From positions 1 to 64,000 of the IMG/VR virus record IMGVR_UViG_3300043827_000628: 64,000 nucleotides of DNA; one strand, 5' to 3'. The first letter of the stretch is position 1, and every line of letters starts with the position of its first letter. The translations under genes and the position numbers were made by a program. Below, in pieces: positions 15,609-29,414 of this stretch. The notes beneath the pieces were generated by a model, which was not told the DNA's origin, searched no databases, and was given only the letters and a program-made list of their open reading frames with translations. This DNA is from a virus.

Positions 15609-17933
15609 TTAGCGTGCATTTGCATATTTGAAGGGTGTTTCGGCGAAGGCGGCGAAGATGTAGGTACCGCCGGTTGCGTTGCCGTCATTTCCTGCTAGTC
15701 TTAACTTAAATCCATTAGAAAGAAAATCAATAGTAGCGGTTGATCCACCAAAGTTTTCAGTATTAGGGATTCTCGAGACTAAATAATTCTTCCCAACATT
15801 GAAGCTATCCCTTGCGCTGTCATAAATAAGCCATCCAAGCGTGTCTGCGGCATCTGTGCGCTTGTGCATAACCCACCTCGGCCTAAACCCGCAATACACA
15901 AACGGTCCGTCAGCCAACCCGTTGCCAGCATAGCTTCCAAACTTGCTGAAGCCTTCGACTTCGGCGAAGAGGTAAGCGATCATATTATTTCCATTGCCAT
16001 TTGAAGACAAATTTGTTCCAACGCTAAATACCGAACTTGTCGGCGCAGTGCTATTCCATACGTTTGGATAGCTCGCCTGTGAGTCTGGAACATCCAAAAA
16101 CACTGAATTTTGAGGAGACGAAAGAGATGAATGGTAAACGCACCAATTAGTTGCCCCAGAAAAATTTCTGTTTTTTACGATTATCATCTTTGGCGCAACC
16201 CCAAGATTATGAGCAATCGTCCTGCTCGTCGCATTACCCGTATAGTTGACAATATCCATCCCCGCTATCGGAGCCTCGTCCCAAGCCCAAGCGACAAAGG
16301 TTGATCCGTTATTATTGTTTTCTGATTCTGTTCCTAGCGTAAACCCAGACGAGTCAAGAGTTACTGTTGTGGATGCCTCTGCGCCAGTTGTGTCGGATCG
16401 GAGCCTCTTCCCGCTTCTTTGCGTGTCAAATATATTGTGGCTTTGGGCTAGGTTTCTTCCTTTTGTCCAAAGAAGGTCAGGGGAAAAGCCAAGCCCCGAA
16501 ATTGTTTGCGTGGCTCCCGTCCCCGTGTACGTCACCACATCCATGTAACTGCTGGGCTTCTTGATAACTGGCGTGGGCAGGTTGGTCGTGCAAAGGGCCT
16601 TGAAGCCGGAGGGGGCGGGGTAGGCGAAGGGGCGTTGGCCGAAGTTGAGGACTGTTGCTCCAGCCGATTGGAAGACACCAACAACAGGAAAGACGGTATT
16701 GCTCAAAAGATTTGAAAAAGCTACGCCCTGACTAGCGCCATTTTTGTAAAATGTTATCTCCCCAGCATCCATGTTTAGCGCAATGCCTATAACATCATTT
16801 GTTGTCCATGGCTCACCATAGGAACTAGAAGACCCACCACCATTTCTCTTTGTACCATCGTCCGACCTGTATCTCCAAGCTGTTGATGCTATTCCGGGTT
16901 CGGTTGATATATCATATAAATTTGTTGCAACTCCAACAATACCGGCCGTCCCACCGCCATAAGTAAGCTCCCAATACCATTTTCCGCTTGAAACTGCCAT
17001 TGTCCCAAGGACTCCATTCCAAACATTTGCTTGAGTTAAGTTTAAATTTCCATTTGCAAGTGTTATTACGCTTCCCTTGGCCAGCGGATTCAAGGTGCAA
17101 TAATTATTAGTAGGACTATCACTCTTTTGATTTAATGAACTCATATTATTAAGAGTCCAATTATTATTATTCCCAGAACTATCTGTTCCGAGTGCAGCCG
17201 AATTATTAAATTTTAAATTAAATCCTGTTGTTCCGTAAGTACCGAGATATCTTTTAGGAACCCAAGTATTTGTGCGGTTACTAGCGGTAGCAAAAGCTGT
17301 TGGAGGAAGTGCTTGACCATCTATAAAATGAGTTTCTGCAACATATCCATCCAAATAATAATCAAAACCATGAAAGTAAAAACCTATAATATGAGGTATT
17401 GCAAGATTAAAAGCACTTTCCCAAGAGTAATTTAAAGAAAAAGTTGGATCAGTAATAAATGTACCTCGGACTCCATTAACATAAAATCTAAATCTTTCAG
17501 ATTGAGCTAAATTTGAACTGTCCCAATTTACTACAAGATGATACCAAGCGCTAGGATCACGAAAAACTTGATTAGAATAAAAAACATTATACCTAAAATG
17601 AAATACTAAACGATCTGTATTGCCAGTAGAGGTACCTGCAATAAAGAAAATATTATAATTTCCAGGAGAGTTACCAACTCCAGTATTGTAACTGTGCCAT
17701 AACATATCTCCATAATTTGTTCTTGAAATGTTTCCTCTCTTAAACCACATGCTAAGAGTTGCAGTAGTTGAACTTCCAGCAGAAGTAAAAGTTCTACTTA
17801 AATATTGATTTGATCCATTAAAAGAGCAACTATTATTTATAGGTTCAGTAATTGTAGGAGCAATACCAACTTCTCCTGGTGATCTTATTATTTTTGGCTC
17901 ATTTGGCGGTACTATATATTTAAAATCACTCAT
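15609..17933 (-). CDS. virion protein, LamG/ConA-like + SPRY(B30.2) + C-terminal beta domain (paralog A)
   Basis: FRDPSAWYHLVV (LamG), SSGKWYWE...DVIGIALNMDAGEITFYKNG...NFGQRPF (SPRY) and C-terminal GFKLR...YIFAAFAE. Confidence 0.8.
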   Translation of the reverse strand: MSDFKYIVPPNEPKIIRSPGEVGIAPTITEPINNSCSFNGSNQYLSRTFTSAGSSTTATLSMWFKRGNISRTNYGDMLWHSYNTGVGNSPGNYNIFFIAGTSTGNTDRLVFHFRYNVFYSNQVFRDPSAWYHLVVNWDSSNLAQSERFRFYVNGVRGTFITDPTFSLNYSWESAFNLAIPHIIGFYFHGFDYYLDGYVAETHFIDGQALPPTAFATASNRTNTWVPKRYLGTYGTTGFNLKFNNSAALGTDSSGNNNNWTLNNMSSLNQKSDSPTNNYCTLNPLAKGSVITLANGNLNLTQANVWNGVLGTMAVSSGKWYWELTYGGGTAGIVGVATNLYDISTEPGIASTAWRYRSDDGTKRNGGGSSSSYGEPWTTNDVIGIALNMDAGEITFYKNGASQGVAFSNLLSNTVFPVVGVFQSAGATVLNFGQRPFAYPAPSGFKALCTTNLPTPVIKKPSSYMDVVTYTGTGATQTISGLGFSPDLLWTKGRNLAQSHNIFDTQRSGKRLRSDTTGAEASTTVTLDSSGFTLGTESENNNNGSTFVAWAWDEAPIAGMDIVNYTGNATSRTIAHNLGVAPKMIIVKNRNFSGATNWCVYHSSLSSPQNSVFLDVPDSQASYPNVWNSTAPTSSVFSVGTNLSSNGNGNNMIAYLFAEVEGFSKFGSYAGNGLADGPFVYCGFRPRWVMHKRTDAADTLGWLIYDSARDSFNVGKNYLVSRIPNTENFGGSTATIDFLSNGFKLRLAGNDGNATGGTYIFAAFAETPFKYANAR
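15873..15977 (+). repeat. second shared block (also at ~18210-18256 and ~20557-20660)
   Basis: ggcctaaacccgcaatacacaaacggtccgtcagcc is identical in all three paralogs. Confidence 0.9.
16249..16648 (+). repeat. GC-rich dispersed repeat, copy 1 of 3
   Basis: Near-identical to 20939-21338 and largely to 18660-18964. Confidence 0.95.
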
Positions 17934-17947
17934 AAAATATTTACACT

Positions 17948-20302
17948 TTAGCGAGCAAGAGCATATTTTAAAGGAGTCTCGGCGAAGGCGGCGAAGATGT
18001 GCTTTCCGCCAGCAGAATTCCCATTAAATGAATTTGTTGACCTAAACTTAAATCCATTTGAATTAAAGTCTATTAGCGCATTTCCAGTAAATTCAGCGAT
18101 AGATCCGTTTGGTTGTAATTGAGCAGAAGCAACATTAAAAGAATCTCTCGATGTGTCGTAAATAATCCAGTTTTCCATCGCATCAACTCTTTTCCCAATA
18201 ATAAGTTTTGGCCTAAACCCGCAATACACAAACGGTCCGTCAGCCGACCCGTTGCCGGTGTAACTGCCAAAAAAAGAGTACCCGGCTACTGGGGCGAATA
18301 CATAAGCAACAAAGTTATTGCCGACGACAACTGGACCATCTCCCACCAAAGAAAATGTTGTCGAGGTGGACGCTGCCCACATGGTTGCATACGTTTGTTC
18401 TCCAAAAACGTTGAACTGTAAATACGCAATTGTTTCATTACTCAATCCTTGGTGCCAAATTTGCCAGTTTTGAGAGTTTGATAGGTTTTTAACAATGTAC
18501 ATTGCAGGCTTAACGCCCAACCCATGACCGTAGGAATTTGTGCCACCTGCACACGTCGCGGTAACAATCGAGAACCCCGCACTGATGTTAGCCCTCACCT
18601 GACTAGTGATGGAGCCTTGTGTGTTGGATACGGTGGAGCTGCCGGCATCCCAGCACCAGGCGACAAAGGTTGATCCGTTATTATTGCTTTCTGATTCTGC
18701 TCCTAGCGTAAAGCCATTTGCCCCAAGCGTAACGGTTGTCGAGGCTTCGGGAAACATTTGGTCAGATCGGAGCCTCTTACCGCTTCTTTGCGTGTCAAAT
18801 ATATTGTGGCTTTGGGCGAGGTTTCTTCCTTTTGTCCAAAGAAGGTCAGGGGAAAAGCCAAGCCCCGAAATTGTTTGCGTGGCTCCCGTCCCCGTGTACG
18901 TCACCACATCCATGTAACTGCTGGGCTTCTTGATAACTGGCGTGGGCAGGTTGGTCGTGCAAAGAGCTCTAAATCCAGACGGTGGAGTATATGTAAAAGA
19001 TCTTTGGCCAGCATTAAACTGAACTTTTTTGCTATTTGCTGATGCTTCTGCACCAAACATCCAATTACCAGAATAAGTTGTGTAAGATGATCCGCTAACA
19101 GTAAATTGTAAAGAATTACCTTTATAAAAACTAACAGATCCATTATCTGCATCCACAGCAACGCCAATAACATCATTGAGTCCATATGTTGCTCCGCCAG
19201 AAGATCCTATTGTGCCATTAACATTTCTATTTGCGTTATCTATATATGCAATAGTTTGTATGCCACTAGTAGTAGTTATCATGCTAATACTACCGCCAAT
19301 AAAATTAGTATCTACTCCAATAACTCCTACAGCAAAAGTTCCTCCTACTCCAACAGAATCTAATGGAGTAAATTCAGCATACCATTTTCCAGTTCTTGGT
19401 ATAGCAAAAGTTGTGCCTTGAGCACGATTATTTGTAGAAACTAAAACTATATTATTATTTGATAATGTAATTGCTGAATTTTTACTTAATAGATTATAAG
19501 TAGGATAATTATTGGTTGGACTATCAACAAATATATTACTAGTATCCATTCCTCCGTTAATTGAAAAATTATTTCCATTACCAGAAAAATCTCTTCCGAT
19601 TGTGGAAGAACTAGTATTATCGCCAAAATTAATATAGTATCCATTTATACCATATAAACCAGTATATTTTTTTGGTTTCCAAACAAAATCTCTTTGATTA
19701 TCAAAATATCCAAAACTATGTGCATCTAAAGACTGATTATCTATAAAATTAATTTCAGTCATATAGAATCGACTTGTATGACTCAAATACTGCACATAAG
19801 AAGCTCTATTAATACCATAAGATGTCTCTGCTGTATATGATTCTGTGGAAAATGATCTTATTCTTTCACCATTAACATATAATCTTTGTCTTTCTGAAGA
19901 TATAGAATTATTTGAATCCCAAACTGCAACTATATGATACCAAGACGATGGGTCTCGAAATACTCGGGTAGTGATTAATCTTCCATAATATGCTCCTGCA
20001 AAATTATAAAGATCCAACGCATCATCTATTGTAAATTGTAACACTGTGCTAGTTGATGCTCCATCCCAACCAGTAATAATTTGTTGCGCAGATTGATTTA
20101 TTGTTTTTTTAATCCAGCAACTAAAAGTCCATGATTTTAGATTTCCACTAACGCTTGGTGTTCTTGTAAAATATTGGTTATTATTAAAAATACAACTTCT
20201 TCCTATCTGATAGTTATTATATAATCCTTTTGAAATATTAGCTTGACTAGTTTTTTCAACATAACTCTTGGTATTTGCATCGATATAAAAGAAATCGCTC
20301 AT
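17948..20302 (-). CDS. virion protein, LamG + SPRY + C-terminal beta domain (paralog B)
   Basis: Same architecture and shared motifs as paralog A. Confidence 0.8.
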   Translation of the reverse strand: MSDFFYIDANTKSYVEKTSQANISKGLYNNYQIGRSCIFNNNQYFTRTPSVSGNLKSWTFSCWIKKTINQSAQQIITGWDGASTSTVLQFTIDDALDLYNFAGAYYGRLITTRVFRDPSSWYHIVAVWDSNNSISSERQRLYVNGERIRSFSTESYTAETSYGINRASYVQYLSHTSRFYMTEINFIDNQSLDAHSFGYFDNQRDFVWKPKKYTGLYGINGYYINFGDNTSSSTIGRDFSGNGNNFSINGGMDTSNIFVDSPTNNYPTYNLLSKNSAITLSNNNIVLVSTNNRAQGTTFAIPRTGKWYAEFTPLDSVGVGGTFAVGVIGVDTNFIGGSISMITTTSGIQTIAYIDNANRNVNGTIGSSGGATYGLNDVIGVAVDADNGSVSFYKGNSLQFTVSGSSYTTYSGNWMFGAEASANSKKVQFNAGQRSFTYTPPSGFRALCTTNLPTPVIKKPSSYMDVVTYTGTGATQTISGLGFSPDLLWTKGRNLAQSHNIFDTQRSGKRLRSDQMFPEASTTVTLGANGFTLGAESESNNNGSTFVAWCWDAGSSTVSNTQGSITSQVRANISAGFSIVTATCAGGTNSYGHGLGVKPAMYIVKNLSNSQNWQIWHQGLSNETIAYLQFNVFGEQTYATMWAASTSTTFSLVGDGPVVVGNNFVAYVFAPVAGYSFFGSYTGNGSADGPFVYCGFRPKLIIGKRVDAMENWIIYDTSRDSFNVASAQLQPNGSIAEFTGNALIDFNSNGFKFRSTNSFNGNSAGGKHIFAAFAETPLKYALAR
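18660..18964 (+). repeat. GC-rich dispersed repeat, copy 2 of 3
   Basis: Shares ...ggtttcttccttttgtccaaagaaggtcagggg...gttggtcgtgca verbatim with the other two copies. Confidence 0.95.
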
Positions 20303-22638
20303 TATCTTGCCCTCGAATATTTAAATGAATGTTCTGCAAAGGCGGCGAAGATGTATGTGGCATTTGTATTGAGCGAGGCTCCTAAATTCCGCAGTTTGAA
20401 CCCGTTAGACAAAAGATCCAAGCCAAGATAGGTTGACTCGGAGCCTGGGGTGCTTGCGTTAAGATATGGGCCCATAACGTTATAACCTTGTCTGGTGGAG
20501 TCGAATATGTTCCAGTGAGTATCAAAAGAACTTACGGAGCTACTTTTAACCATCAACCACCTCGGCCTAAACCCGCAATACACAAACGGTCCGTCAGCCG
20601 ACCCGTTGCCAGTATAGCTTCCAAACTTGCTGAAGCCTTCGACTTCGGCGAAGAAGTAAGCTATAAAACTTTCTCCACTAGCAACTACATCATTATGTAA
20701 TCCTATATCAATTGCGCTTGCTCCTCTTCCTATCCAATTGTTGTAAAATGATACAGTTCTTGATGCGGTTCCGTTTAAAAGAAGATAATAATATTCAGAA
20801 TCTGTAGGAGATGATCCTACTCCTTGATGATAAACATACCAACCTCTTGCGCCAGTTAAACTTTTGATAATAACCATAGCTGGAGCTTTTCCCAAATTAT
20901 GGGAAATATTATTTGAATAACCATTACCAGTATAAGAAACAATATCCATCCCCGCTATCGGAGCCTCGTCCCAAGCCCAAGCGACAAAGGTTGATCCGTT
21001 ATTATTGTTTTCTGATTCTGTTCCTAGCGTAAAGCCATTTGCCCCAAGCGTAACGGTTGTCGAGGCTTCGGGCAACGTTTGGTCAGATCGGAGCCTCTTA
21101 CCGCTTCTTTGCGTGTCAAATATATTGTGGTTTTGAGCGAGGTTTCTTCCTTTTGTCCAAAGAAGGTCAGGGGAAAAGCCAAGCCCCGAAATTGTTTGCG
21201 TGGCTCCCGTCCCCGTGTACGTCACCACATCCATGTAACTGCTGGGCTTCTTGATAACTGGCGTGGGCAGGTTGGTCGTGCAGAGGGCCTTGAAGCCGGA
21301 GGGGGCGGGGTAGACAAATGGGCGTTGGCCGAAGTTGACGGTTAGACCAATGTTGGCGGAAATTGTATCATCGCCTACCACAGGAAAATATGTCCCGGCG
21401 GCAATACTCGTGTAAGCATTGCCTTGAGATACATTGTTTTTGTAAAAAGTTAACGTACCGTTATCTGCATCAAAGGCGATCCCAACTATATCGCCATTAG
21501 CAAGTATTGAACCATATGAAGACAAGGTGTTATTGTTTCTTTTGTTGCTGCCACCTGAATACGAAGCCCATACCCAGGAATACGCGTCAACACCCCCGTA
21601 ACTTGCAAGATTTGCTTGATTTGTGGCTATACCGGTTGCACAGTGATTGGATGTGGTAGTAACTTCCCAATACCATTTTCCGCTGGACATTCCAATTGTC
21701 CCAAGAATCAACCCATATCCGCTTCCGCTGCTGGTGACCTGCAGGTTTCCATTTGCCGGAGCTTGTATGTCTCCACCCTTTGCTAACGGATTGAGCGTGC
21801 AATAATTATTAGTAGGACTATCACTTACAACAAAATTATTTATCCCATCAGAACTATAACCATTTAATTTCCAGTTATTACCGTTGCCACTTTTATCTCT
21901 TATTAATTCACTAAAACTAGAATCATTTAGTGGCAAATAAAATCCATTTGTTCCATATGTTCCAGAGTACCTTTTTGGTTGCCAAATGCCAATACTATCA
22001 GTATAACCAAAATTTTCTGGACCAAGGGCTTGGCCTTCAATCCAATGCATTTCTGCAATATATCCATCGTAATACAGGTTTCTTGGCACGGATGAGGCAC
22101 CAATACTGTGGTCATACATTTGATTGTAATGAGTCTGTGTATTTTGATTTGGATATGTTGAGACAGAAAAAGATGTAACTTTAACTCCATTTACATACAT
22201 CTTAAGCCGCTCTGTGCTTGTGGCATTTGCCGTGTCTATTACATATACTAAGTGATACCAAGCTGATGGATCTCTTAAAACCTGATTTGACTGAAGAGTA
22301 TAATTGCTTGTAAGGCCAGCAGAGTTCATAAACAAACAATCGTCCTGAATCCCCATTTGGCTTGTTGATAAATAGATGTGGTTTCCAGCACAAAATATTC
22401 TTGGATAATATGCCGATCCTAAAACACCCCTCTTGATCCAGACAGAAAGTGTTGCTGTTTGAGCGTTTGAGCTTGTCGCTGGCGTTCTATTCAAAAATTG
22501 AGAACTGCCACTATTAAAAATTAAACTCTTATACTGTTTTACTGATGGTCCAAGAACACTATTAACGCCAATTGCTCCAAGACTTGAGCCACTTTTAACA
22601 CTTCCTGATATATCAAATAATTTAAATGGTTTAAACAT
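20302..22638 (-). CDS. virion protein, LamG + SPRY + C-terminal beta domain (paralog C)
   Basis: Same architecture and shared motifs as paralog A. Confidence 0.8.
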   Translation of the reverse strand: MFKPFKLFDISGSVKSGSSLGAIGVNSVLGPSVKQYKSLIFNSGSSQFLNRTPATSSNAQTATLSVWIKRGVLGSAYYPRIFCAGNHIYLSTSQMGIQDDCLFMNSAGLTSNYTLQSNQVLRDPSAWYHLVYVIDTANATSTERLKMYVNGVKVTSFSVSTYPNQNTQTHYNQMYDHSIGASSVPRNLYYDGYIAEMHWIEGQALGPENFGYTDSIGIWQPKRYSGTYGTNGFYLPLNDSSFSELIRDKSGNGNNWKLNGYSSDGINNFVVSDSPTNNYCTLNPLAKGGDIQAPANGNLQVTSSGSGYGLILGTIGMSSGKWYWEVTTTSNHCATGIATNQANLASYGGVDAYSWVWASYSGGSNKRNNNTLSSYGSILANGDIVGIAFDADNGTLTFYKNNVSQGNAYTSIAAGTYFPVVGDDTISANIGLTVNFGQRPFVYPAPSGFKALCTTNLPTPVIKKPSSYMDVVTYTGTGATQTISGLGFSPDLLWTKGRNLAQNHNIFDTQRSGKRLRSDQTLPEASTTVTLGANGFTLGTESENNNNGSTFVAWAWDEAPIAGMDIVSYTGNGYSNNISHNLGKAPAMVIIKSLTGARGWYVYHQGVGSSPTDSEYYYLLLNGTASRTVSFYNNWIGRGASAIDIGLHNDVVASGESFIAYFFAEVEGFSKFGSYTGNGSADGPFVYCGFRPRWLMVKSSSVSSFDTHWNIFDSTRQGYNVMGPYLNASTPGSESTYLGLDLLSNGFKLRNLGASLNTNATYIFAAFAEHSFKYSRAR
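20939..21338 (+). repeat. GC-rich dispersed repeat, copy 3 of 3
   Basis: Offset 4690 nt from copy 1. Confidence 0.95.
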
Positions 22639-27764: not shown

Positions 27765-28280
27765 GTGATCGTTTCCGAAATAGATATAAATTTCTTCGCT
27801 AAAAAATTAAATTTGTCAGAAGAAAAAACTTTTCTTCTTTTGCAAGACCCAGATTGTCTACCAGAAATTTTGAATAAAATATCAGATCAAGATATAAATG
27901 GAATAATTGATATAAGTTTTCCAGTTTTTACAGAGCTAACAATATTCAAGTATTCTAAAGACATAGAATGTTCTTTTCAAGAAAAAGAATACGTTTCAGA
28001 AGCTGTAAGTAATAAATTTTATAATTTAATAGAATATCCATTACAAAACAAATATTTCTTTCAGTTAGAGCATAATGAAGATACTGCAAAATCTGTTTTA
28101 GTATTTCTAGGATTTTTCTATAAGAGTTTAGAAAAGCTCAGAAGATCATACCCCTCTGAAAGTATATATTATGGTATAGCTAAGAGTGGATTTGAGAATG
28201 CAGAAAGAGATGAAGTATCTTATCATTTAAAAGATTGGATCAAAGTCTTAAGAAGAATACATAATGAAGTCTGGTACTAA
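27765..28280 (+). CDS. hypothetical protein
   Basis: 171-aa ORF with GTG start 8 nt after CTGTAA. Confidence 0.7.
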   Translation: MIVSEIDINFFAKKLNLSEEKTFLLLQDPDCLPEILNKISDQDINGIIDISFPVFTELTIFKYSKDIECSFQEKEYVSEAVSNKFYNLIEYPLQNKYFFQLEHNEDTAKSVLVFLGFFYKSLEKLRRSYPSESIYYGIAKSGFENAERDEVSYHLKDWIKVLRRIHNEVWY

Positions 28281-28314
28281 TATCTTAACATATATTATTA
28301 TACTTTTCTTTGAT

Positions 28315-28622
28315 ATCCCATAGAAGACTTTCCCTCAGAAATTTCTTGAAGTTATGTTTAGTCTTTTGTCTCTACTTTTCTTTTGACTCCCATTTCCTTC
28401 TTTTGAAGGAACAGACTACGGCACTTATAGATGGGCGAGGTGGCTTGCCCCTGTACATACTGCCGTCCCATACAGCCACACATTAACTTCTAAGCCATCT
28501 TATGCACAAAGAAGGTTTTCATAGTTGCAAGTCTTCACAGCATTGCTATCTCTGTAGACAAAGGACTAAATAATTTTCTATAAAACTATCAAAATTGCCT
28601 ATAATTAGAAGGCTATGTCAAT
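28315..28622 (-). ncRNA. putative ~300-nt highly structured ncRNA of unrecognised class
   Basis: No ORF of 60 aa or more in the gap, which is GC-richer than its flanks and has many complementary segments; a TTGACA-N17-TATTAT promoter points into it on the minus strand. Strand and ends are uncertain. Confidence 0.6.
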
Positions 28623-28627
28623 AGCTT

Positions 28628-28671
28628 ATAATACAAAAATCTTTGAATTTTGTCAAATGTTTTTATATAAT
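28628..28671. promoter_or_regulatory. overlapping divergent sigma70-type promoters
   Basis: Minus strand TTGACA(28656-28651)-N17-TATTAT(28633-28628); plus strand TTGAAT(28643)-N17-TATAAT(28666-28671). Confidence 0.65.
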
Positions 28672-28678
28672 TTTTTTT

Positions 28679-28894
28679 ATGGAAGCGATAAGAAATGAAA
28701 AAGCTTGGATAAAATATAAAAAACAAAAAGCTTTAAATTATAATATTGATGAAAAAGATATAGACGCTAATTATTATCCAGATCAATATCCATGCCTAGC
28801 ACAACAGTACTTGAGTTCAGATGCGAATGGAATTAGATTAAAGTTTATATTTGTTTATAAAAAAGATTGTCAAAAGTTGATAGGTAAAGTATAA
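28679..28894 (+). CDS. hypothetical protein
   Basis: Start moved to ATG 28679, 7 nt after TATAAT; YPDQYPCLA motif. Confidence 0.6.
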   Translation: MEAIRNEKAWIKYKKQKALNYNIDEKDIDANYYPDQYPCLAQQYLSSDANGIRLKFIFVYKKDCQKLIGKV

Positions 28895-28927
28895 TTTGTG
28901 TAAGTAATTTTATAGTTCTTTCTCATT

Positions 28928-29346
28928 GGGCCAGACTTGGTTTCGATTTTAGGAATCGAAATTAAAATGCAAGTAGAGTTGAAGTGGACTCTTTAAACAA
29001 CTTCAAAATACTTAACTGCCAAACCAGCTAAGTTAAAGGGCAGCTTCTCCTTGAGAGTTTCTCACAAGAAGAACTCCCTAATCGCAGCCTAAAACTCTGC
29101 GACCTGTTACCTACGACACATCTACTAGGATAATGGGTATTTAGATGTATTAATTTAAATCCTTTTTATTTAATTTTTAAATTAATTATATTGGGTAGAT
29201 TTGACCAAGGTTAGATCTATTATAAAATAAATAGCTATAGCCCGATTGCCTGTTCGACACTATAGCGAAAAAACGGAATAGGCTAAACTTGTAGTATTTT
29301 AATTTAAGTTCACTAAAAGACGGGGATTCAATCTCCCCCTGGTCCA
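28928..29346 (+). ncRNA. ssrA: tmRNA
   Basis: Acceptor stem GGGCCAG/CTGGTCC-A with G3:U pair, GGTTTCGA loop, T-arm GGGGA-TTCAATC-TCCCC, long helix 2, PK1, and resume context TAACT-GCC. Tag ORF 29018-29092 encodes AKPAKLKGSFSLRVSHKKNSLIAA*. Confidence 0.95.
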
Positions 29347-29414
29347 AGTAAACGATTCCTTTGCTCTCCAATTTTATTAGTATACTTTTTAGTTATAAGT
29401 GTAATAAATATATT

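What the first reader, a model, noticed from the sequence alone, without database searches (positions are those of the whole stretch)
28315..28656. Unrecognised ~300-nt, multiply pseudoknotted non-coding element next to the tmRNA
Seen: the largest gap in the window without an annotated gene is GC-richer than its flanks and full of complementary segments. Long-range pairs are TTTAGTCTTTTGTCT (28357-71) / AGACAAAGGACTAAA (28556-70), GAAGACTT (28323-30) / AAGTCTTC (28529-36) and GAAGTTA (28348-54) / TAACTTC (28484-90); the first crosses the other two, giving a pseudoknot. A second knotted core pairs ACGGCA (28418-23) / TGCCGT (28461-66) and GTGGCT (28440-45) / AGCCAC (28474-79). Local hairpins include TTCCTTC-TTTT-GAAGGAA (28394-411) and GCTAT-GTCA-ATAGC (28612-25). 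A TTGACA-N17-TATTAT promoter fires leftward into it with no ORF to serve. Inference: a large structured phage RNA (ribozyme, scaffold, or replication-primer/origin RNA) that matches no class I recognise. G:U evidence is split between strands, so a DNA-level or origin structure is also possible.
Basis: partly seen in the sequence, partly recalled or inferred. Interest (0 to 1): 0.85.

Follow-up and report, generated by a model that had tools for sequence, protein, structure and literature searches.

The report
New knotted RNA gene, lake phages
The gene-free gap beside this uncultured lake phage's tmRNA is a separate gene, read from the opposite strand, for a roughly 320-base tightly knotted non-coding RNA that matches no catalogued family; two exposed purine-rich tracts that always change together are the best clue to its unknown job.

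Summary
Rfam 15 gives no match, even at E<=10.

Corrections:
- The strand is no longer ambiguous. In 3734 helix cells, wobble pairs fit the minus strand 167 times and the plus strand 25 times.
- An exact TTGACA-N17-TAnnAT promoter sits 6-10 nt before the conserved 5' end in all three clades, so this is a minus-strand RNA of about 320 nt (window about 28620 to 28300).
- The GCTAT/ATAGC hairpin is not conserved.

The fold has 12 helices, two well-supported pseudoknots and a tentative third. Two 17-nt single-stranded purine tracts are invariant apart from one position, which is C in both or U in both in all 95 sequences.

tmRNA adjacency is not obligatory: in one clade the gene lies just upstream of nrdA instead. 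The function is unknown. My best guess is a trans-acting scaffold or decoy that presents twin binding sites to a co-evolving partner.

This scan has already flagged the same family in at least seven other genomes. It is not in Rfam and I found no paper describing it.

The parts
28628..28656 (-). Sigma-70-type promoter of the RNA gene: -35 TTGACA (28656->28651), 17-nt spacer, -10 TATTAT (28633->28628)
   Evidence: 11 of 12 match. The exact TTGACA with a 17-nt spacer and TAnnAT was scored in 39 of 45 distinct upstream regions; in the other 6 my anchor slipped, but TTGACA can still be read in them. The promoter is also present in clade B, in a different genome context.
28300..28621 (-). The roughly 320-nt structured non-coding RNA. 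The 5' end is inferred at about 28621-28618 (conserved ACAUAG). The 3' end is undefined; conservation ends just after purine tract 2, at about 28300.
   Evidence: Alignments A3/A4; promoter spacing; no conserved terminator.
28597..28613 (-). S1: 5' hairpin (GCCU/AGGC). Its loop may pair with the 5' flank of tract 2 (tentative PK3: 28606-28610 with 28316-28320).
   Evidence: helix 1 is 100% paired, with 3 of 4 pairs covarying; 82.9% paired when read as the plus strand.
28570..28589 (-). S2: hairpin
   Evidence: Its sequence differs in each clade and it is compensated within clades A, B and C.
28556..28570 (-). S3 5' strand. Pairs with 28357-28371, closing the multi-branch body.
   Evidence: 15 bp in clade A with 6 compensated positions; 9 bp in clade C; 12 bp with a bulge in clade B.
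28521..28549 (-). S11+S4: two-part hairpin (AUAG/CUAU, then UGC/GCA). Its loop, 28529-28536, is the 5' strand of PK1.
   Evidence: helices 2 and 3. AUAG/CUAU becomes AUGG/CCAU in clade B.
28323..28330 (-). PK1 3' strand (AAGUCUUC). Pairs with the S4 loop at 28529-28536 and crosses S3.
   Evidence: helix 4: 99.2% paired, 4 of 7 pairs covary. Within clade B the pairing is CAGGCU/AGCCUG, GAAGGCU/AGCCUUC or AUAGGCU/AGCCUAU.
28487..28514 (-). S5: hairpin (CUUC/GAAG) with a conserved loop of about 20 nt
   Evidence: helix 1: all 5 pairs covary..
28418..28479 (-). Knotted core. S7 is 28461-66/28418-23. S8 is 28447-50/28433-36. S6 (= PK2) is 28474-79/28440-45, and its 3' strand lies in the S8 loop.
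   Evidence: helices 2-4: 98-100% paired, each with 2-3 pairs changed on both sides.
28394..28411 (-). S10: hairpin (UUCCUUC/GAAGGAA). It ends in a GNRA-type tetraloop in most of clade A.
   Evidence: helix 5: 7 of 8 pairs covary..
28374..28390 (-). Purine tract 1, GGAGUCAAAAGAAAAGU, single-stranded
   Evidence: Invariant in 95 distinct sequences except for one C/U position, which always matches tract 2.
28357..28371 (-). S3 3' strand
28333..28351 (-). S9: hairpin (CUUCA/UGAGG), followed by the conserved nAAAG linker into PK1
   Evidence: It is 8-10 bp in clades B and C, with compensated changes.
28302..28318 (-). Purine tract 2, GGAUAUCAAAGAAAAGU, the 3' tail
28412..28417 (-). Segment (i), AGUCUG, directly after S7. 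It is also complementary to the S4 loop in all three clades, so it may be an alternative or transient partner.
   Evidence: Only between-clade covariation supports it; unexplained.

Best explanation
SHOWN. The gap holds an autonomous gene on the minus strand for a roughly 320-nt RNA. Its fold has twelve helices, two pseudoknots (PK1: S4 loop with the 3' region; PK2: S6 into the S8 loop) and perhaps a third. The fold is maintained by compensatory substitutions across three clades of uncultured lake phages of about 130-170 kb.

INFERRED FROM SEQUENCE. Host sigma-70 RNA polymerase transcribes it from an invariant TTGACA-N17-TAnnAT promoter, so it is probably made early. It acts in trans, because the gene has moved and inverted relative to its neighbours between clades.

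INFERRED MECHANISM. The rigid knotted body serves as a scaffold that displays two nearly identical single-stranded purine tracts (GGA-N2-3-CAAA(A)GAAAAGU). These are twin binding sites for one dimeric or duplicated partner. Because the two tracts change in step, that partner probably co-evolves with the phage and is likely phage-encoded. The RNA would then be either the RNA subunit of a phage ribonucleoprotein or a high-affinity decoy. The identity of the partner and the downstream effect are unknown.
For: - Structure: 94% Watson-Crick plus 4.5% G.U in 3734 cells, with 46 of 81 variable pair positions compensated within a clade. The tool controls agree.
- Strand: 167 G.U against 25 A.C. The same seven helices are 97.4% paired in minus sense and 95.2% in plus sense, and S1 is 100% against 82.9%.
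- Promoter: invariant -35, fixed 17-nt spacer length with variable spacer sequence, and a position 6-10 nt before the conserved ACAUAG. It is present in clade B in another context.
- Autonomy: in clades A and C the gene converges on the 171-aa gene and diverges from the small ORF and tmRNA. In 11 clade-B loci it lies about 120-150 nt upstream of nrdA, in the same orientation.
- Tracts: identical in 95 distinct sequences apart from one position that is C/C (72 sequences) or U/U (22), never mixed. U/U arose in part of clade A and in one subclade of C. No complementary segment exists inside the RNA.
- No coding potential: 1-2-nt indels between clades, and AUG-UAG in clade C.
- Phage-only distribution: 60 viral and 76 metagenome contigs, and none in 185,579 prokaryote genomes.
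Against: - No transcript has been observed, and no 3' end or conserved terminator was found.
- The single-sequence folding z-score is better for the plus strand (-3.5) than for the minus strand (-1.7).
- The concerted C/U change rests on only two or three evolutionary events. Chance or gene conversion could explain it.
- No partner was identified. The neighbouring 71-aa ORF travels with the tmRNA, not with the RNA.
- A sponge would normally carry more than two sites. So elaborate a core suggests more than display of two tracts.
Confidence: 0.45

Rival explanations
1. A self-assembling, RNA-only complex of the ROOL/GOLLD type. One of the covarying 'pseudoknots' (PK1, or the S1 loop with the tract-2 flank) would really be an intermolecular kissing contact that joins copies head to tail into a ring or cage. 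The A-rich tracts would make A-minor contacts.
For: - The RNA is phage-borne, large and multiply knotted, has no protein gene attached, and sits beside tmRNA/tRNA genes, as ROOL and GOLLD sit near tRNA islands (PMC12286853).
- That paper shows that a covarying ROOL 'tertiary' contact is in fact quaternary, so covariation cannot separate intramolecular from intermolecular pairing.
- The S4 loop has two complementary partners in every clade.
Against: - There is no sequence or structure match to the ROOL or GOLLD models.
- The RNA is about half the size of ROOL.
- The parallel C/U change in both tracts is not what A-minor contacts predict.
- Nothing tested here bears on oligomeric state.
Confidence: 0.17
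2. A pre-primer or origin RNA in the manner of ColE1 RNA II or T4 R-loop origins. The folded transcript would leave its polypurine tracts hybridised to the pyrimidine-rich template strand as RNase-H-resistant R-loops. Its 3' end, made by RNase H rather than by a terminator, would prime leading-strand synthesis.
For: - A strong promoter with no terminator.
- Two invariant polypurine tracts, one of them at the 3' end. Purine-RNA/pyrimidine-DNA hybrids are the most stable kind (established knowledge).
- The phage carries its own DnaB, DnaE-type polymerase and UvsX.
Against: - GC skew simply follows gene orientation, with no extremum at the element.
- Twelve covarying helices and two pseudoknots are far more structure than known primer RNAs need.
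- The gene is inverted and displaced by 4.6 kb between clades.
- An R-loop with its own template would not require the two tracts to stay identical to each other.
Confidence: 0.12
3. A ribozyme, for example a reduced or rearranged RNase-P-like enzyme that processes the phage tmRNA and tRNA precursors.
For: - It is of catalytic-RNA size, with a knotted core that has invariant joining strands.
- A hairpin, then GAGGnAAAG, then a long-range pseudoknot strand recalls the P3-J3/4-P4 layout of RNase P. This is from memory and is a lead only.
- RNA substrates (tmRNA, tRNA-Thr) are encoded nearby.
Against: - No RNase P model of any type scores, even at E<=10.
- The order of the look-alike motifs does not fit a simple circular permutation.
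- In clade B the tmRNA lies 6-10 kb away.
Confidence: 0.07
4. A cis-acting or antisense regulator of its neighbours (the nrdAB block, the 171-aa gene, or the small ORF and tmRNA promoters).
For: - The gene always borders the nrdA-nrdB-112aa-171aa block and is transcribed into it.
- Its -35 element overlaps the spacer of the divergent TTGAAT-N17-TATAAT promoter.
- In clade B it could act as a leader of nrdA.
Against: - It is sense to nrdA in clade B but antisense to the 171-aa gene in clades A and C, so no single cis logic fits.
- The conserved part stops about 20 nt short of the neighbouring stop codon.
- No riboswitch family matches.
Confidence: 0.05
5. A DNA-level structure, or a plus-strand RNA (3' UTR of the 171-aa gene).
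For: - The plus strand has the better folding z-score.
- The window's own S3 helix has one T.G on the plus strand.
Against: - The G.U-to-A.C ratio is 167:25.
- S1 loses 17% of its pairs when read as the plus strand.
- The minus-strand promoter is invariant.
- In clade B no gene lies upstream on the plus strand.
Confidence: 0.03

Closest known systems
ROOL (RF03087) and GOLLD (RF01998) large ornate RNAs
   Same: All are carried by phages or prophages, are large and multiply pseudoknotted, have no dedicated protein gene, lie next to tRNA-type genes, and have unknown function (PMC12286853).
   Different: There is no model match. This RNA is about 320 nt, against roughly 580 and 800 or more. Its helices and conserved strands are unrelated to theirs. 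It carries twin invariant purine tracts. So far it is known only from one lineage of lake phages. Multimer formation has not been tested.
ColE1 RNA II / T4 origin R-loop RNAs
   Same: It is promoter-driven and structured, has no terminator, and contains purine-rich segments that could form a persistent hybrid with the template.
   Different: It is far more elaborately folded and knotted. There is no origin signature in the skew. Its location and orientation change between clades.
Protein-sponge RNAs (CsrB/RsmZ with GGA motifs; CrcZ with A-rich Hfq sites)
   Same: It has exposed GGA-containing, A-rich (ARN-type) single strands displayed on a structured RNA.
   Different: It has only two sites rather than 6-22. 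The sites are 17-nt invariant sequences, not short degenerate motifs. No Rfam match. The body is a knotted core rather than a string of hairpins.
Bacterial RNase P RNA
   Same: The size class is similar, and a long-range pseudoknot is preceded by a GAGGnAAAG-like strand after a hairpin.
   Different: No covariance-model hit. There are no CR-II to CR-V equivalents, and the motif order is incompatible.
phi29 pRNA (RF00044)
   Same: A phage-encoded structured RNA made from a host-type promoter, in which covarying loop pairing could be intermolecular.
   Different: No model match. It is twice the size. The phage lineage is unrelated and has a terminase of ordinary type.

Membership tests
ROOL (RF03087) | Match to the Rfam covariance model at or near its gathering score | tested here: not met
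   cmscan of the whole window at gathering thresholds, and of 28200-28950 at E<=10, gave no ROOL hit.
ROOL (RF03087) | Assembles into an RNA-only multimeric cage | not testable with these tools
   Needs native gel or cryo-EM. Covariation cannot separate intramolecular from intermolecular pairs (PMC12286853).
GOLLD (RF01998) | Match to the Rfam covariance model; conserved 3' domain; length of about 800 nt | tested here: not met
   No hit. The conserved length is about 320 nt.
Bacterial/archaeal RNase P RNA (RF00010, RF00011, RF00373, RF02357) | Covariance-model match, with a P4 helix flanked by CR-I and CR-V | tested here: not met
   No RNase P family appears among matches up to E=10. Only a short look-alike recalled from memory remains.
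Bacterial/archaeal RNase P RNA | Cleaves pre-tRNA 5' leaders | not testable with these tools
   Needs an in-vitro assay.
tmRNA (RF00023) | tRNA-like domain plus a tag reading frame | tested here: not met
   The tmRNA model hits only 28928-29347. The element has no tRNA-like end.
CsrB/RsmZ- or CrcZ-type sponge RNAs | Many repeated short protein-binding motifs in hairpin loops or single strands | tested here: not met
   Only two conserved GGA/A-rich tracts. No Rfam match.
ColE1-type primer RNA | Persistent RNA-DNA hybrid at an origin, with RNase H processing to a primer | not testable with these tools
   Only indirect features are available: no terminator and skew uninformative.
Riboswitch / cis-regulatory leader | Fixed position upstream of, and co-oriented with, the regulated gene | tested here: not met
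   It is co-oriented with nrdA only in clade B. It is convergent with its neighbour in clades A and C.

The most novel reading that the evidence does not exclude
The RNA is the nucleic-acid subunit of a previously unrecognised phage machine: either a ribonucleoprotein built on twin co-evolving tracts with a phage-encoded dimeric partner, or a compact self-assembling RNA-only ring or cage. It would be made early from a host promoter to redirect host translation or RNA metabolism alongside the phage's own tmRNA and tRNAs.
Probability: 0.3. Interest if true: 0.85.

Novelty: categorically new. Interest (0 to 1): 0.72.

Why it matters
Bacterial and phage RNAs of this size and complexity have almost always turned out to be ribozymes, ribonucleoprotein cores or, recently, self-assembling cages, and new classes are now rare. 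This one is compact enough for direct structural work. It has clean covariation support, a defined promoter and an obvious functional handle in the twin tracts. It comes from an abundant but uncultured lineage of lake phages that also carries its own tmRNA and translates mostly Shine-Dalgarno-less or leaderless mRNAs. Finding its partner could reveal a new way in which phages take over host RNA or translation machinery.

One caveat on novelty: the class is new relative to Rfam 15 and the searchable literature, but this scan has already reported it from several other genomes. Fragments of 151 nt or less might also be listed in the catalogue of candidate viral structured RNAs (PMC10690425), which I could not check.

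Tried and rejected
- blastn of the element against 50,697 phage records: no match. No cultured relative; the best DnaE identity is about 27%.
- Rfam at a permissive threshold: only four chance-level hits.
- The look-up of sequencing runs: no RNA holder listed. The holders are lake-water DNA metagenomes.
- Core 19-mer scan of viral contigs: nothing. The single 16-mer scan was mostly noise.
- A relaxed pattern with a mis-set gap returned only unrelated A-rich loci. The corrected relaxed pattern and the metagenome scan found no fourth clade.
- RNA-tmRNA duplex energy is no better than with shuffled tmRNA (one search timed out).
- Sites complementary to the tracts elsewhere in the window: 13 against 4.7 expected, but all the others carry a mismatch and lie mostly inside ORFs; none is convincing.
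- A search for an intramolecular partner covarying with the C/U tract position found none. The associated columns are ordinary subclade markers and helix compensations.
- The 71-aa ORF as a partner protein: it has no Pfam or PHROG family, and in clade B its relative stays beside the tmRNA, not beside the RNA.
- Cumulative GC skew as an origin test: it follows gene orientation only.
- The L035 343-aa neighbour is unrelated to the window's 348-aa gene.
- Supplements of PMC10690425 are not held, so I could not check whether fragments of this RNA are among its catalogued candidate structured RNAs (DNAVirus_X).
- Literature searches found no description of this RNA.

Full report
**What is in the window.** The stretch 28281-28642 has no ORF of 60 aa or more. 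It is richer in GC than its flanks, 0.43-0.45 against 0.23-0.30. Rfam 15 finds one family in the whole 64-kb window, the tmRNA at 28928-29347 on the plus strand (101 bits). A permissive scan of 28200-28950 gives only four chance-level hits for the element. The window belongs to a 91-kb IMG/VR record. That record comes from a phage with class I ribonucleotide reductase, DnaB, a DnaE-type polymerase, a UvsX-like recombinase and terminase. It has no cultured relative closer than about 27% DnaE identity. DNA runs that hold the stretch are lake-water metagenomes.

**Relatives.** The 171-aa gene upstream recruited 23 related viral contigs. Seventeen of them carry a homologous gap at 64-85% identity. 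A scan for the two most conserved 17-mers at the right spacing found 60 viral contigs and none in 185,579 prokaryote genomes. A relaxed scan of 241 million metagenome records found 76 contigs. A profile search sorts all of them into three clades and no fourth:
- Clade A, which includes the window.
- Clade B, the most divergent.
- Clade C, the majority.

There are 95 distinct full-length sequences. The absence from cellular genomes argues against IMG/VR's 'provirus' label.

**Strand.** I defined twelve helices on one reference per clade and counted pairs on within-clade alignments of 52 distinct sequences. Of 3734 cells:
- 3518 are Watson-Crick.
- 167 are G.U if the RNA is the minus strand.
- 25 are A.C, which would be G.U on the plus strand.
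- 19 are other.

Counting each pair type once per position, the ratio is 43 to 9. With the counting tool, seven helices that align cleanly across clades are 97.4% paired in minus sense and 95.2% in plus sense. The 5' hairpin S1 falls from 100% to 82.9%. The exact TTGACA, a spacer of exactly 17 nt with variable sequence, and TAnnAT were scored in 39 of 45 distinct upstream regions, 6-10 nt before the conserved ACAUAG. In the other six my anchor slipped, but TTGACA can still be read. Clade B has the same promoter in a different genomic setting. The single-sequence folding z-score favours the plus strand (-3.5 against -1.7), and I weigh it below the comparative data. I conclude that this is a minus-strand RNA running from about 28620 to about 28300. 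Transcription itself was not observed: no RNA run is listed as holding the sequence.

**Structure.** Read 5' to 3' on the minus strand, the elements are:
- ACAUA, then hairpin S1 and hairpin S2.
- S3 5' strand, then GAGAUAGCAA.
- Two-part hairpin S11/S4, whose loop is the PK1 5' strand, then ACUAUnAAAAC.
- Hairpin S5, with a conserved loop of about 20 nt.
- S6 5' strand and S7 5' strand, then S8, whose loop contains the S6 3' strand (PK2), then S7 3' strand.
- Hairpin S10.
- Tract 1.
- S3 3' strand.
- Hairpin S9, then nAAAG.
- PK1 3' strand.
- Tract 2.

A covariance model of the core (S5 to S10) realigned 46 distinct sequences at 85-154 bits. On that alignment 97.1% of cells pair, against 82.8% in shuffles (0/500) and 31-49% when partners are slid. 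Nineteen of 29 pairs change on both sides, and each of the five helices, including the pseudoknot S6, has at least two such pairs. PK1 is 99.2% paired with four of seven pairs covarying. Within clade B alone it reads CAGGCU/AGCCUG, GAAGGCU/AGCCUUC or AUAGGCU/AGCCUAU. S3 is 15 bp in clade A, 12 bp with a bulge in B and 9 bp in C, with compensated positions in each. S8 slides through GGGC/GCCC, GGAG/CUCC, GAGG/CCUC and AGGG/CCCU within clade A.

**Corrections and open points on structure.**
There the two local hairpins S5 and S9, which use the same segments, remain intact and covary.
- The hairpin 28612-25 exists only in part of clade A and straddles the start site.
- A possible third pseudoknot joins the S1 loop to the NNGGA flank of tract 2. 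It is UUCUA with UGGGA in clade A, UCCUA with UAGGA in B, and UCCAA with UUGGA in C. It rests on one covarying position and is weakened in L083.
- A short segment directly after S7 is also complementary to the S4 loop in all clades. I cannot say whether it is an alternative, transient or intermolecular partner.

**The tracts.** GGAGUCAAAAGAAAAGU (28390->28374) and GGAUAUCAAAGAAAAGU (28318->28302) are the most conserved parts of the RNA, and nothing within the RNA can pair with them. In the 95 distinct sequences the only variable position is the pyrimidine before the A-run. It is C in both tracts (72 sequences) or U in both (22), never mixed. The window is the only C/C member of clade A. U/U also marks one subclade of C. 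So both tracts changed together at least twice. No column inside the RNA switches G to A in step with this, and sites complementary to the tracts elsewhere in the window are unconvincing. Two identical sites that evolve in concert are the pattern expected when one partner reads both and co-evolves with them, as with iterons or operator repeats. That points to a phage-encoded partner rather than a fixed host partner. This is an inference from few events.

**Context.** In clades A and C the order is nrdA, nrdB, small genes, the 171-aa gene, then the RNA gene (opposite strand), a 71-aa ORF, and the tmRNA with its own promoter. The tmRNA lies about 290-300 nt away, or about 110 nt where the small ORF is missing. 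In eleven clade-B loci the RNA gene lies 120-150 nt upstream of nrdA in the same orientation, and the tmRNA is 6-10 kb away or outside the locus. The gene with its promoter is therefore a mobile, self-contained unit. tmRNA adjacency is not a defining feature, and no single cis-regulatory logic fits both layouts. No conserved terminator follows tract 2. The phage's protein genes are mostly without a Shine-Dalgarno sequence (12 of 52), and many have a -10-like box a few bases before the ATG. This agrees with earlier notes on this genome about leaderless mRNAs.

**Interpretation.** That this is a real, independently promoted, highly structured non-coding RNA gene I hold at about 0.95, and that it is on the minus strand at about 0.9. 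For function I favour a trans-acting scaffold that presents twin sites to a co-evolving dimeric or duplicated partner, either as a ribonucleoprotein core or as a decoy.
- The main rival is a ROOL/GOLLD-like self-assembling RNA. The cryo-EM study of those RNAs showed that a covarying contact thought to be tertiary is really quaternary (PMC12286853), so PK1 or PK3 could be intermolecular.
- A pre-primer or origin RNA is also possible, given the polypurine tracts and the missing terminator. The skew gives no support, and the amount of conserved structure seems excessive for that role.
- A ribozyme cannot be excluded. The RNase-P-like look of hairpin, GAGGnAAAG and pseudoknot strand is a memory-based resemblance that fails the model test.

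**Novelty.** The RNA is not in Rfam 15, not in 50,697 phage records, and not described in the papers I could search. A 2023 catalogue of more than 10,000 candidate viral structured RNAs, none longer than 151 nt, could contain fragments of it; its supplements are not held. This scan has already flagged and followed up the same family in at least seven other genomes, with the same verdict. I reached the structure, strand and tract observations independently and then found that they agree.

Noticed in passing
window 28928-29347 (+): Phage-encoded tmRNA (Rfam, 101 bits) with its own TTGTCA-N17-TATAAT promoter at 28867-28895. The ARAGORN tool found nothing in the window but does call the orthologues in relatives, with unusually long 24-residue tags ending LIAA or SVA.
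   Followed up: partly
window 28679-28894 (+): Conserved 71-aa ORF between the RNA promoter and the tmRNA, with no Pfam or PHROG family and 107 tblastn hits among the fetched loci. It is missing in L142 and L158. In clade B a 30-residue relative lies just beyond the tmRNA on the opposite strand, so it travels with the tmRNA rather than with the RNA.
   Followed up: partly
window 28628-28671: Back-to-back overlapping promoters. The -35 of the minus-strand RNA promoter (28651-28656) lies inside the spacer of the plus-strand TTGAAT-N17-TATAAT promoter of the small ORF, so polymerase binding may be mutually exclusive.
   Followed up: no
window 28137-28160 (-): Terminator-like hairpin plus T-run on the minus strand inside the 171-aa gene, about 140 nt beyond the conserved end of the RNA. 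It is not found at the equivalent place in a clade-C or a clade-B relative, so it is probably not the family's 3' end signal.
   Followed up: partly
whole window (52 ATG-start ORFs): Only 12 of 52 genes have a GGAG/GAGG/AGGA motif upstream. Many have TATAAT- or GTGTAA-like boxes 6-10 nt before the ATG, which suggests leaderless mRNAs and a host that makes little use of Shine-Dalgarno pairing.
   Followed up: partly
G000 record as a whole: IMG/VR labels the record 'provirus', yet the family's double motif occurs in 60 viral and 76 metagenome contigs and in none of 185,579 prokaryote genomes. The label is probably wrong.
   Followed up: partly
L035 8855-9306 and eleven other clade-B loci: In clade B the RNA gene has moved to the other end of the nrdA-nrdB-112aa-171aa block and is inverted, so it is co-oriented with nrdA and only 120-150 nt upstream. 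In both layouts it is transcribed into the nrd block.
   Followed up: yes
window 15609-22638 (-): Three tandem paralogous genes of about 780 aa, matching a virion structural / tail-fibre PHROG. Their region has a higher GC (about 0.40) than the rest of the window.
   Followed up: no
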